IMG/VR virus record: IMGVR_UViG_2531839619_000023
Source: a virus
Taxonomy: Duplodnaviria > Heunggongvirae > Uroviricota > Caudoviricetes
Length of the DNA stretch: 40,950 nucleotides
Strand: one strand, 5' to 3'
The translations under genes were made by a program, and so were the position numbers. Positions 36,193 to 36,970 of the stretch are shown here, piece after piece (the first letter of the stretch is position 1; every line of letters begins with the position of its first letter). A model generated the notes under the pieces. That model worked only from the letters and a program-made list of their open reading frames with translations. It had not been told where the DNA came from and made no database searches.

Positions 36193-36655
36193 AATGCACG
36201 TTTTGTGTATTTTCCCTCCTGGGAGAACAGGCAGGACATATCAGCATCCTGAAACAGGAAGCATTTTTGGGTTTGTATGTCTTGCCATTTTGAGATCGAG
36301 AACGGCGATAGATGAGCTGTAAGGGAGTCTTACAGGCAGGGCAAACAGGCTCTTTCATCCATGATAAAGATCTCCTTTTTATGCATCTCTGCTTTACAGG
36401 AGACCGGGGAATATCATAGGATACGCCACGAGCTCGAAGTAAAGCATTGATGCAAGTTTTTACAGATTGACCCAGCATAGTTCCAGCTATGCTGGGTTTC
36501 ACTTTTATGTAGTATCCTGTTGATTTGAAACATACTACATATACGCGTGATCCTACCTTCACTGTATAAAAAGTCAATAAAATGATCATTTTATGATCGT
36601 TTTCACCACCTAACTCTTCGTTTTCTTTAAGTAAATAATCACCTCCCTGAATCAT
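36191..36655 (-). CDS. Hypothetical Cys-rich basic protein (possible zinc ribbon); doubtful gene
   Basis: 154-aa minus-strand ORF in the AT-rich region with a CPAC...CPAC pair near the C-terminus; no convincing Shine-Dalgarno; overlaps the GATC-rich region. Confidence 0.25.
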   Translation of the reverse strand: MIQGGDYLLKENEELGGENDHKMIILLTFYTVKVGSRVYVVCFKSTGYYIKVKPSIAGTMLGQSVKTCINALLRARGVSYDIPRSPVKQRCIKRRSLSWMKEPVCPACKTPLQLIYRRSRSQNGKTYKPKNASCFRMLICPACSPRRENTQNVH

Positions 36656-36702
36656 TGTTGATGACTTTTCAATCTATTTGTTGTATCAATTAAACAAATC
36701 GA

Positions 36703-36725
36703 ATCGATCGTTTTTGTCGATCGAT
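36703..36725. promoter_or_regulatory. Palindromic operator-like element with two GATC (Dam) sites upstream of com-mom
   Basis: ATCGATCG tttttgt CGATCGAT, a perfect 8-bp inverted repeat about 45 bp upstream of the com ATG. Further GATC sites at 36548, 36584 and 36595. In Mu the mom promoter is Dam/OxyR regulated through upstream GATC sites. Confidence 0.5.
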
Positions 36726-36769
36726 TGCATGAGAAAGGCATCAACAACAAAGCAGGAGGTTATGCGGTC

Positions 36770-36970
36770 ATGTATCGAAACATACGGTGCCGACACTGCA
36801 ATAAGCTACTGGCACGGGCCAGTTTCAGTTATCTGGAAGTAAAATGTCCGCGCTGTAAAACCCTCAATCAAATCACATCTCCGAGCGCCACAGAGCACCC
36901 CACATACACAAGGAAATCCTGTCGTGGGGAACAGAAAGCAAGTCACATCCCGAATCATCAGCACGCCTGA
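36770..36970 (+). CDS. com: Com, zinc-finger translational activator of mom
   Basis: [35 protein letters not shown] matches Mu Com (IRCKNCNKLL...IRCPRCK); ribosome-binding site AGCAGGAGG; overlaps the mom start. Confidence 0.8.

What the first reader, a model, noticed from the sequence alone, without database searches (positions are those of the whole stretch)
36530..36770. GATC-bearing palindrome and GATC cluster upstream of com-mom
A perfect inverted repeat ATCGATCG-N7-CGATCGAT with a GATC in each arm lies about 45 bp upstream of com, and three further GATC sites lie 110-220 bp further upstream. In Mu, mom transcription is repressed by OxyR binding to unmethylated upstream GATC sites and activated by C protein. 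The palindromic arrangement here differs from what I recall of Mu and may be a variant methylation-sensitive operator.
Basis: partly seen in the sequence, partly recalled or inferred. Interest (0 to 1): 0.45.

Follow-up and report, generated by a model that had tools for sequence, protein, structure and literature searches.

The report
Dam/OxyR operator upstream of com-mom
The GATC-bearing palindrome upstream of com-mom in this Mu-like E. coli prophage is the conserved core of the known methylation-sensitive OxyR operator of phage Mu's mom operon, so it is an ordinary homologue, in a somewhat rearranged promoter region.

Summary
A perfect inverted repeat, AATCGATCG-N7-CGATCGATT, lies at 36702-36726, 44 bp before the com ATG. 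It has one GATC per arm, at 36706 and 36719. Three more GATCs lie at 36549, 36584 and 36595.

Mu has the same palindrome, AATCGATC-N9-GATCGATT, with the same 13-bp GATC spacing (its GATC sites 2 and 3). The window core is 21/23 identical to the agn43 Dam/OxyR operator. P22 gtr half-sites are of the same type. Every enterobacterial com upstream region examined has GATC pairs 13 and/or 18-19 bp apart. Loci from Pseudomonas, Desulfovibrio and Rhodospirillaceae have none.

The best match in the window to the extended OxyR consensus is 36676-36721, at 14/20. Mu's top-scoring site also scores 14/20 with the same geometry. The palindrome is its com-proximal half-site.

The three upstream GATCs are not conserved, and their density is not significant across the window.

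Real differences from Mu:
- two GATCs rather than three;
- the operator lies 27 bp closer to com;
- there is no late-activator box before com. The phage's box, CTGAWWTNNCGCAAA, occurs only before lys, before I, and before a cargo gene just after gin.

The com promoter is unresolved.

Verdict: a new member of a known kind, of modest interest.

The parts
36702..36726 (.). Perfect inverted repeat AATCGATCG-TTTTTGT-CGATCGATT. Its core, 36707-36721 (ATCGTTTTTGTCGAT), is the predicted com-proximal OxyR dimer half-site, with a Dam site in each arm.
   Evidence: Searches give the sequence. It is homologous to Mu L003 1174-1199. It is 21/23 identical to agn43 L168 434-456. It matches the half-site consensus at 7/10. 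It is invariant in 13 of 14 distinct Sp18-type variants; the exception, L034, has one change in the right arm just outside the half-site core.
36706..36709 (.). GATC (Dam site) in the left arm.
   Evidence: With 36719 it forms the only GATC pair 13 bp apart in the window.
36719..36722 (.). GATC (Dam site) in the right arm, 51 bp before the com ATG.
36676..36690 (.). Predicted distal OxyR half-site ATTTGTTGTATCAAT. It has no GATC; Mu and agn43 carry their third GATC in the equivalent half-site.
   Evidence: It matches the consensus at 7/10. Its centre is 31 bp from the palindrome centre, as in Mu (31) and agn43 (32). It lies in the block that stays invariant even where the sequence further upstream is replaced.
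36676..36721 (.). Predicted complete OxyR operator: half-site, 16 nt, half-site.
   Evidence: It scores 14/20, the top score in the 40,950-bp window, tied with one site inside a coding region at 6603. Mu's top-scoring site, which spans its three GATCs, scores 14/20 with the same N16 gap, and agn43's scores 16/20. In the 22-bp geometry, 6 registers in 36640-36760 score at least 12; no dinucleotide shuffle out of 5000 reached that.
36739..36744 (+). Candidate A -10 element: CATCAA here, TATCAA or TATCAT in relatives. The predicted start is about 36751, which would put the GATCs at about -45 and -32.
   Evidence: Inference from geometry. The P22 gtr -10 starts 21 nt after its GATC4; this one starts 20 nt after GATC 36719 (PMC2909390). 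The leader length resembles Mu's. The match to the -10 consensus is weak.
36661..36689 (+). Candidate B promoter: ATGACT, 17 nt, TATCAA. The predicted start is about 36696, which would put the operator at about -20 to +26, as in agn43.
   Evidence: ATGAC and TATCAA are conserved with the same spacing in the JE86/L015 lineage (ATGACA), although the flanks have diverged. The score is weak and there is no T at -7. TATCAA is also explained by the distal OxyR half-site.
36770..36970 (+). com, the zinc-ribbon translational activator of mom.
   Evidence: Pfam PF10122, E=1.9e-12. RefSeq annotation agrees.
36924..37661 (+). mom, the adenine methylcarbamoylation enzyme. It overlaps the end of com.
   Evidence: Pfam PF25680, E=4e-77. 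79.5% identical to Mu Mom.
36549..36598 (.). The three upstream GATCs (36549, 36584, 36595). They are probably not part of the com-mom operator.
   Evidence: They are not conserved in M18, JE86 or L015. No OxyR half-site scores 7/10 or better there. GATC 36549 overlaps the -10 of a minus-strand promoter-like site, 36577-36550.
36469..36498 (+). Hairpin terminator that closes the upstream cargo operon and marks the left edge of the com regulatory region.
33428..33470 (+). Late-activator box CTGAATTAACGCAAA plus -10 TATGAT, between gin and the cargo gene. This is context: the phage's activator-dependent promoter sits here, not before com.
   Evidence: The only other exact matches are at 9529 (lys) and 17457 (I).
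9107..9532 (+). The only Mor/C-family activator gene found in the window.
   Evidence: Pfam PF08765, E=2.8e-32. Annotation agrees.

Best explanation
The palindrome is the com-proximal half of a Dam-methylation-sensitive OxyR operator (36676-36721) for the com-mom operon of an Sp18-type Mu-like prophage of E. coli.

How it works, inferred from the Mu mom, agn43 and P22 gtr systems and not shown here:
- An OxyR tetramer binds two dimer sites about 31 bp apart.
- The proximal dimer site is ATCGnTnnnAnCGAT, a variant of ATAGnTnnnAnCTAT. Both of its arms form GATC with the flanking bases.
- When both GATCs are unmethylated, and perhaps when hemimethylated, OxyR binds and blocks com-mom transcription.
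- Full Dam methylation of the two adenines prevents binding and permits transcription. Bound OxyR in turn shields the GATCs from Dam.

Shown here: the sequence, its homology to the Mu and agn43 operators, its consensus match, and its conservation and taxonomic distribution.

Inferred: OxyR binding, methylation sensitivity and repression.

Unresolved: the start site of the promoter it controls. The operator either overlaps the -35/spacer of a promoter just before com (as in gtr), or lies just downstream of a promoter at 36661-36689 (as in agn43). OxyR would occlude RNA polymerase in either case.

The three upstream GATCs are not part of it.
For: 1. Homology to Mu. Window GAATCGATCGTTTTTGTCGATCGATT aligns without gaps to Mu AAATCGATCGGTAATACAGATCGATT, and the flank ATCAATTAAA is shared. 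Mu's three GATCs are the Dam/OxyR control region of Pmom (PMC3378877; PMC2909390).
2. agn43. The K-12 operator ATCGATCGTTTATATCGATCGAT is 21/23 identical to the window core, and its GATCs are spaced 19+13. Dam methylation there abrogates OxyR binding (PMC2909390; PMC3764049).
3. P22 gtr. Half-sites A and C carry GATC pairs 13 bp apart in the same site type (PMC2909390).
4. Consensus of 23 distinct 13-bp pairs: ATCGATCGnTnnTAnCGATCGATT. Conservation in the spacer peaks at T (19/23), A (14/23) and C (15/23), which are the three positions the OxyR half-site consensus specifies. A neighbouring T (16/23) is not specified.
5. Extended-geometry scan. The window's top score, 14/20, is at 36676. Mu scores 14/20 with the same N16 gap and agn43 scores 16/20. 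In the 22-bp geometry, P(max>=13)=0.018 in dinucleotide shuffles of the region.
6. Distribution. Among GTDB loci where a com gene was recognised, 7/7 enterobacterial com upstream regions have a pair spaced 13 or 18-19 bp, against 1/21 in non-enterobacterial hosts (Fisher P=7e-6). All enterobacterial-type IMG/VR lineages have one too.
7. The palindrome, its spacer and the distal half-site are invariant across 14 distinct Sp18-type variants (except one right-arm flank change in L034), while the 14 bp downstream vary.
Against: - There is no experimental evidence for this phage.
- Each half-site matches the OxyR consensus at only 7/10. A G replaces the A at half-site position 10. A 7/10 site is functional in opvAB, though (PMC4856963).
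- The operator has two GATCs, not the three of Mu and agn43, so methylation may block OxyR less completely.
- The consensus is AT-rich and the region is 34% G+C. That inflates scores, although dinucleotide shuffles control for it.
- Invariance among close relatives may partly reflect recent common descent.
- The controlled promoter is not located, and no late-activator site is found, so the logic of the circuit (what turns mom on) is incomplete.
Confidence: 0.75

Rival explanations
1. The palindrome is the binding site of the phage's own Mor/C-family late activator, as the dyad C site is in Mu Pmom. The GATCs would be incidental.
For: It is a perfect dyad just upstream of com, where an activator site overlapping the -35 would sit under promoter candidate A. 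Mu C binds a dyad there (PMC4461284). No other activator box is found before com.
Against: The phage's other late promoters share a different box, CTGAWWTNNCGCAAA, at 9529, 17457 and 33428. None of them has CGATCG. The same palindrome occurs in Mu next to, and distinct from, the C site. It also occurs in agn43 and in gtr, which have no Mor/C protein. It is kept in phages whose Com and Mom proteins differ by 20-30%.
Confidence: 0.05
2. The palindrome acts as a nucleic-acid hairpin. It would be a leader stem-loop in com mRNA if the start is near 36696, or a terminator for leftward transcription entering from the prophage end.
For: In a fold of 36696-36775 the palindrome forms a 9-bp stem. The whole 80-nt fold has a minimum free energy of -21.9 kcal/mol (z=-2.4). 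The scan lists it as terminator-like on the minus strand.
Against: There is no U-run after the stem on the plus strand. In other lineages only the GATCs and the OxyR-type positions are kept. Arm bases outside GATC are often not complementary, for example in L037 and L038, and the spacer length is fixed at 9 between GATCs. That is the pattern of a protein site, not a stem. No gene on the minus strand needs terminating there.
Confidence: 0.05
3. Methylation acts without OxyR. The GATC pair overlaps the promoter, and Dam methylation alters RNA polymerase, SeqA or another protein's binding directly.
For: Under candidate A the right-arm GATC lies in the -35 region. In gtr, the methylation state of GATC4 may affect promoter activity directly (PMC2909390). 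SeqA is an ancillary factor in opvAB (PMC4856963).
Against: The conserved non-GATC positions match the OxyR half-site. A distal GATC-free half-site sits at the correct 31-bp distance. Mu and agn43 both depend on OxyR genetically (PMC2909390; PMC3378877).
Confidence: 0.08
4. The feature is chance: overlapping ClaI and PvuI sites in AT-rich spacer DNA, with no function.
For: GATC density and 13-bp pairs are not significant across the window.
Against: The specific pattern has an expectation of 0.2 even with 3 mismatches allowed. It is conserved in position, spacing and flanks across diverged com-mom loci, and absent from loci in hosts that are not expected to have Dam.
Confidence: 0.03

Closest known systems
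Phage Mu mom operon control region (Dam/OxyR 'region I' upstream of Pmom; also in D108 and SfMu)
   Same: It has the same position before com-mom. The palindromic GATC pair is homologous, with 13-bp spacing and identical arms (AATCGATC/GATCGATT). The flank ATCAATTAAA is shared. The predicted OxyR site has the same 46-bp half-N16-half geometry and the same 14/20 consensus score.
   Different: Mu has a third GATC 18 bp upstream, in the distal half-site; the window has none. Mu has the C-binding site ATTATGCCCCAATAAC and a -35 between the operator and the -10. The window lacks those roughly 27 bp: the last GATC is 51 bp from the com ATG, against 78 in Mu. It also has no match to its own late-activator box. 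In Mu com follows gin directly. Here a 3-kb lambdoid-type cargo operon with its own activator-dependent promoter lies between them.
agn43 (flu) Dam/OxyR phase-variation operator of E. coli
   Same: The proximal half-site core is 21/23 identical. The GATC spacing is 13 bp. A distal half-site lies 31-32 bp away. There is a single repressing OxyR site with no second alternative site.
   Different: agn43 has three GATCs (19+13). Its operator starts at about the transcription start: isrC, annotated from the first GATC, suggests this, and my own recollection of Wallecha et al. 2002 agrees. Whether the window operator lies downstream of its promoter (candidate B) is unresolved. The distal halves are unrelated in sequence. 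Phase variation has not been shown for mom (PMC2909390).
P22 gtr Dam/OxyR switch
   Same: Its half-sites A and C are GATC pairs 13 bp apart, of the ATCGnTnnnAnCGAT type. The promoter-proximal pair lies at -46/-33. Candidate A would place the window pair at about -45/-32 (PMC2909390).
   Different: gtr has three half-sites and two alternative OxyR positions, one activating (AB) and one repressing (BC), with four GATCs. The window has one GATC-bearing half-site and one GATC-free half-site, like BC only.

Membership tests
Mu-type Dam/OxyR control region of the com-mom operon | Lies immediately upstream of a com-mom gene pair at the right end of a Mu-like phage. | tested here: met
   Com matches PF10122 and Mom matches PF25680. 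The A, B, Mor-family, lys, I and gin gene order is Mu-like. The palindrome ends 44 bp before com.
Mu-type Dam/OxyR control region of the com-mom operon | A palindromic GATC pair 13 bp apart (Mu GATC sites 2 and 3), homologous in sequence. | tested here: met
   Gapless 26-bp alignment to Mu with identical arms. The pair is present in 23 distinct com-upstream variants.
Mu-type Dam/OxyR control region of the com-mom operon | Three clustered GATCs (18+13 bp) within the OxyR site. | tested here: not met
   Only two are present. The distal half-site, 36676-36690, has TATC where agn43 has GATC.
Mu-type Dam/OxyR control region of the com-mom operon | A late-activator (C) binding site between the operator and the -10. 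| tested here: not met
   The phage's box CTGAWWTNNCGCAAA matches exactly at 9529, 17457 and 33428 only. There is no hit with up to 3 mismatches in 36153-36770. The segment homologous to Mu's C site is absent.
Mu-type Dam/OxyR control region of the com-mom operon | mom expression requires Dam and is repressed by OxyR in dam- cells. | not testable with these tools
   Needs reporter fusions in dam, oxyR and double-mutant hosts.
OxyR binding site (LysR-type tetramer site) | Two ATAGnTnnnAnCTAT half-sites, 22 bp or about 32 bp apart centre to centre. | tested here: met
   36676-36721 scores 14/20 with an N16 gap, the top of the window. The controls score 14/20 (Mu) and 16/20 (agn43). Each half-site is 7/10.
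OxyR binding site (LysR-type tetramer site) | Physical binding of OxyR, abolished by GATC methylation. | not testable with these tools
   Needs gel-shift or footprinting assays with unmethylated, hemimethylated and fully methylated DNA.
agn43-type epigenetic phase-variation switch | An OxyR operator with GATCs that overlaps or lies just downstream of an activator-independent sigma-70 promoter. | tested here: inconclusive
   Candidate B (ATGACT-17-TATCAA, 36661-36689) is conserved but scores weakly. Candidate A is equally possible.
agn43-type epigenetic phase-variation switch | Heritable ON/OFF states with differential GATC methylation. | not testable with these tools
   Needs single-colony reporter assays and per-molecule methylation calls.
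Intrinsic terminator | A G+C-rich hairpin followed by a U-run on the transcribed strand. | tested here: not met
   On the plus strand the stem is followed by GCATGAG. Only the minus strand is terminator-like.

The most novel reading that the evidence does not exclude
In Sp18-type prophages com-mom may have been uncoupled from the late activator. The activator box now drives the nanS-p-like cargo operon just after gin. What remains before com is a weak promoter gated only by an agn43-like Dam/OxyR operator, 21/23 identical in its core. Mom DNA modification could then switch ON and OFF heritably in a subpopulation of lysogens, instead of being a strictly late lytic function. That would give phase-variable anti-restriction modification of host and prophage DNA.
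Probability: 0.1. Interest if true: 0.65.

Novelty: new member of a known kind. Interest (0 to 1): 0.28.

Why it matters
It matters little as a discovery. It re-finds the classic Dam/OxyR control of the toxic mom gene in the Mu-like prophage carried by about 4% of complete E. coli genomes (233 of 5426), many of them STEC/EHEC isolates.

Three points may be useful:
1. The GATC pair 13 bp apart, ATCGnTnnnAnCGAT, is a common signature of Dam-sensitive OxyR half-sites. It is shared by Mu mom, agn43 and P22 gtr. It is conserved before com in Enterobacterales and absent from com-mom loci in Pseudomonas, Desulfovibrio and Rhodospirillaceae.
2. This phage lineage keeps the operator but has no recognisable activator site before com. 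That makes it a natural test case for a question the literature calls open: whether mom expression phase-varies (PMC2909390).
3. The phage's late-activator box can now be recognised. It shows that the lambdoid-type nanS-p-like cargo is wired into the Mu-like late programme.

Tried and rejected
1. An activator box at 36640. I first thought CACYTY(Y)CTGA(N)AT-N31-TAnnnW marked the late-activator box, because it occurred only before lys, I and com. I rejected it for three reasons:
   - Relatives show that the invariant core of the lys and I boxes is CGCAAA, which the com copy lacks.
   - The com copy decays in the L018, L015 and JE86 types although the activator and the lys and I boxes stay the same.
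   - A third true box turned up at 33428.
2. A crude sigma-70 weight-matrix scan could not place the com promoter. It also ranks Mu's known Pmom low.
3. GATC density statistics are not significant across the window. A first shuffle script timed out.
4. Rfam found no family in the window at gathering threshold, and only a chance-level hit near the region.
5. The long-range inverted repeat 36646-68/36734-56, and the leader fold that pairs with the com AUG, are not conserved in relatives.
6. Literature searches found nothing specific:
   - no start-site or methylation data for Sp18 com-mom;
   - the primary papers on Mu OxyR and on agn43 are not held.
7. The junction upstream of the cargo gene is not homologous to the lambdoid context.
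8. A collection scan for the palindrome found 59 viral contigs. Thirty lie next to a com gene. I looked at two of the other 29 and saw no recognisable neighbouring gene.

Full report
**What the window is.** It is a Mu-like prophage of the Sp18 type found in STEC/EHEC.
- The gene order is transposase A and B, a GemA-like gene, a single Mor/C-family gene (9107-9532), lys, head and tail genes, and gin (32843-33403).
- Then comes a lambdoid-type cargo block: DUF6645/SASA esterase at 33503-35542, DUF1378, and DUF826 ending at 36152.
- After that come com (36770-36970) and mom (36924-37661), then host DNA.
- The com-mom region is found at 90-100% identity in 233 of 5426 complete E. coli genomes.

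**The observation.**
- Arms AATCGATCG (36702-36710) and CGATCGATT (36718-36726) are perfectly complementary around TTTTTGT.
- GATCs lie at 36706 and 36719. The com ATG is 44 bp downstream.
- Three more GATCs lie at 36549, 36584 and 36595.
- By counts alone this is not remarkable. Five GATCs in 178 bp occur somewhere in 34% of shuffled windows. A triple within 50 bp occurs in 76%. A pair 13 bp apart occurs in 46%.
- The exact palindrome pattern is unexpected: 0.2 are expected even with 3 mismatches allowed.

**Comparison with Mu.** It does not.
- Mu reads gacGATCgaatcaattaaatcGATCggtaatacaGATCgattatgccccaataacc. Its second and third GATCs form AATCGATC-N9-GATCGATT, with the same 13-bp spacing.
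- The 26-bp core aligns to the window without gaps, and the flank ATCAATTAAA is shared. D108 and SfMu are the same.
- These GATCs are the Dam/OxyR control region of Pmom (PMC3378877; PMC2909390).

**Comparison with other Dam/OxyR switches.**
- The agn43 operator of K-12 reads ATCGATCGTTTATATCGATCGAT. It is 21/23 identical to window 36703-36725, and its GATCs are spaced 19+13.
- P22 gtr half-sites A and C are ATTGATCGGTAACAACGATCAATT and ATTGATCGCTTGTATCGATCAAAA. The published GATC positions, -110/-97 and -46/-33, are also 13 bp apart (PMC2909390).

**Comparative survey.**
- I collected 73 com-mom loci from IMG/VR (45 distinct upstream regions, Mom identity 69-100%) and 49 loci from GTDB species genomes. 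Of the GTDB loci, 28 have a recognisable com.
- Every com upstream region from Enterobacterales has adjacent GATCs 13 bp and/or 18-19 bp apart.
  - The Mu type has 18+13.
  - The Sp18 type, L035-L037 and Edwardsiella have the 13-bp pair without the 18-19-bp spacing.
  - One other lineage has 18 only.
- Loci from Pseudomonas, Desulfovibrio, Rhodospirillaceae and others have 0-1 GATC. The counts are 7/7 against 1/21, Fisher P=7e-6.
- Copies of mom without com in a lambdoid context, downstream of Q, have no such pair.
- The consensus of 23 distinct 13-bp pairs is ATCGATCGnTnnTAnCGATCGATT. Conservation in the spacer peaks at T (19/23), A (14/23) and C (15/23). Those are the three positions the OxyR half-site ATAGnTnnnAnCTAT specifies. 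A neighbouring T (16/23) is not specified.
- Arm bases outside GATC are often not complementary in other lineages, which argues against a hairpin function.

**The full operator.**
- I scanned with two half-sites separated by 16-17 nt, about 32 bp centre to centre. This is the geometry seen in gtr and opvAB.
- The unique best site in the agn43 locus scores 16/20 and the unique best site in the Mu locus scores 14/20. Both span all three GATCs.
- In the window the top score, 14/20, is at 36676-36721, with the same N16 gap as Mu. It ties with one site inside a coding region.
- The palindrome core is the com-proximal half-site. ATTTGTTGTATCAAT (36676-36690) is the distal half-site and carries no GATC.
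- This 46-bp span lies within the block that stays invariant across 14 distinct Sp18-type variants. That includes lineages whose upstream sequence has been replaced up to position 36675. The 14 bp after the palindrome vary.
- In the 22-bp geometry the region also holds the top scores of the window. P(max>=13) is 0.018 in dinucleotide shuffles, and no shuffle out of 5000 had as many registers scoring at least 12.

**The upstream GATC trio.**
- It is not conserved. M18 keeps two of the three. The JE86/L025 and L015 types have unrelated sequence there. L018 has lost the first.
- It has no OxyR-like half-site.
- GATC 36549 overlaps the -10 of a minus-strand promoter-like site, 36577-36550. That site faces a small minus-strand zinc-ribbon ORF, 36358-36191.
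- I treat the trio as unrelated to the operator, or as chance.

**What really differs from Mu.**
1. The operator has two GATCs, not three.
2. About 27 bp are missing between the operator and com. In Mu these carry the C-binding site and the -35. The last GATC is 51 bp from the com ATG, against 78 in Mu.
3. The phage's own late-activator box is CTGAWWTNNCGCAAA, followed 22-23 nt later by TAnGnT. It occurs exactly three times: before lys (9529), before I (17457), and at 33428 between gin and the cargo gene. Nothing within 3 mismatches lies in 36153-36770. The activator-dependent promoter that follows gin in Mu therefore drives the cargo operon here. A hairpin terminator at 36469-36498 separates that operon from com.

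**Where the com promoter is.** This is unresolved. No strong sigma-70 match exists, but the same crude scan also ranks Mu's known Pmom low.
- Candidate A has a -10 at 36739-44. It reads CATCAA here and TATCAA or TATCAT in relatives. It would place the GATCs at about -45 and -32, almost exactly as in gtr. The leader would be about as long as Mu's.
- Candidate B is ATGACT-17-TATCAA at 36661-36689. It is conserved in a diverged lineage. It would place the operator at about -20 to +26, as in agn43.
- In the nearest short-spacing relatives (L035-L037, Edwardsiella L119), clear -10 elements (TATACT, TATAGT, TAGATT) sit 7-9 nt after the second GATC. So an operator overlapping the core promoter is the rule in this subgroup.
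- OxyR bound at 36676-36721 would occlude RNA polymerase under either candidate.

**Verdict.**
- The palindrome is the conserved core of a known regulatory device, the Dam-sensitive OxyR operator of com-mom. It is not a variant of it.
- Binding, methylation sensitivity and repression are inferred from homology to three experimentally studied systems. None of them is shown for this phage.
- The loss of the activator site leaves open a small chance of about 0.1 that mom is phase-variable in lysogens, as agn43 is. The literature notes that this has never been tested for mom (PMC2909390).
- Interest is modest. This is a new member of a known kind.

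Noticed in passing
window 33428-33470; also 9529-9572 and 17457-17500: The motif CTGAWWTNNCGCAAA, followed 22-23 nt later by a -10 (TATGAT, TACGCT or TATGCT), occurs exactly three times in the window. All three are intergenic and on the plus strand: before lys, before the I protease gene, and between gin and the nanS-p-like cargo gene. It is probably the binding box of the single Mor/C-family activator. That would mean the cargo operon is expressed as a late operon from the place where Pmom sits in Mu.
   Followed up: partly
window 33503-36152: A cargo block typical of lambdoid Stx-phage late regions sits inside a Mu-like prophage, between gin and com. 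It comprises a 679-aa DUF6645/SASA-family esterase (NanS-p-like), DUF1378 and DUF826. Its upstream junction is not homologous to the lambdoid context.
   Followed up: partly
window 36191-36358 (minus strand) and 36550-36577: A 55-aa minus-strand ORF with two CxxC pairs (MKEPVCPAC...CPAC) has an AAGGAG ribosome-binding site 9 nt upstream. A minus-strand promoter-like site, TTGACT-16-TAGGAT, lies upstream of it, and its -10 overlaps GATC 36549. The site is conserved in strain M18. RefSeq annotates a longer 154-aa hypothetical protein here.
   Followed up: partly
window 36469-36498 and 36506-36541: A strong hairpin terminator (11-13 bp stem, plus strand) ends the cargo operon. Directly after it lies an AT-rich perfect 10-bp inverted repeat with a 16-nt loop (TATGTAGTAT / ATACTACATA). 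Its function is unknown, and it is partly deleted in M18.
   Followed up: no
window 36741-36749; L015: A short (CAA)n run lies between the palindrome and the com ribosome-binding site. It has 3 copies here and 5 in one relative (L015). This small length polymorphism falls in the leader or promoter region.
   Followed up: no
window 9038-9107 and 9107-9532: Only one Mor/C-family gene was found in this phage; Mu has both Mor and C. A hairpin with a T-run (9042-9065) precedes it. The middle and late steps of the cascade may therefore be merged.
   Followed up: no
IMG/VR loci L176, L189, L195, L214, L216, L218, L224 (L211 similar): The palindrome ATCGATCG-GTTTCAA-CGATCGAT recurs in at least 7 viral contigs with no com gene nearby. 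It is an ideal GATC-bearing OxyR-type half-site. In several of these contigs it lies in apparently non-coding DNA. They may be further Dam/OxyR-controlled phage loci.
   Followed up: partly
L004 (Aeromonas phage pAEv1818), L128, L130, L131, L152: In some phages of Aeromonas, Yersinia and Serratia, mom occurs without com and without GATC pairs. In the Aeromonas phage it lies directly downstream of a Q antiterminator gene; for the other loci I checked only the sequence just upstream of mom. This looks like a different solution to controlling the same toxic gene.
   Followed up: no
window about 16737-16816: RefSeq annotates a 'tRNA-OTHER' on the minus strand at the equivalent position in a related genome (L002 18009-18088). 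ARAGORN finds no tRNA or tmRNA anywhere in the window.
   Followed up: partly
L168 406-452 (E. coli K-12 agn43) compared with window 36676-36721: The agn43 operator lies in the cryptic prophage CP4-44. Its proximal half is almost identical to the Sp18 com operator (21/23), while the distal halves are unrelated. I could not tell whether this is shared ancestry or convergence on the same OxyR and Dam constraints.
   Followed up: partly
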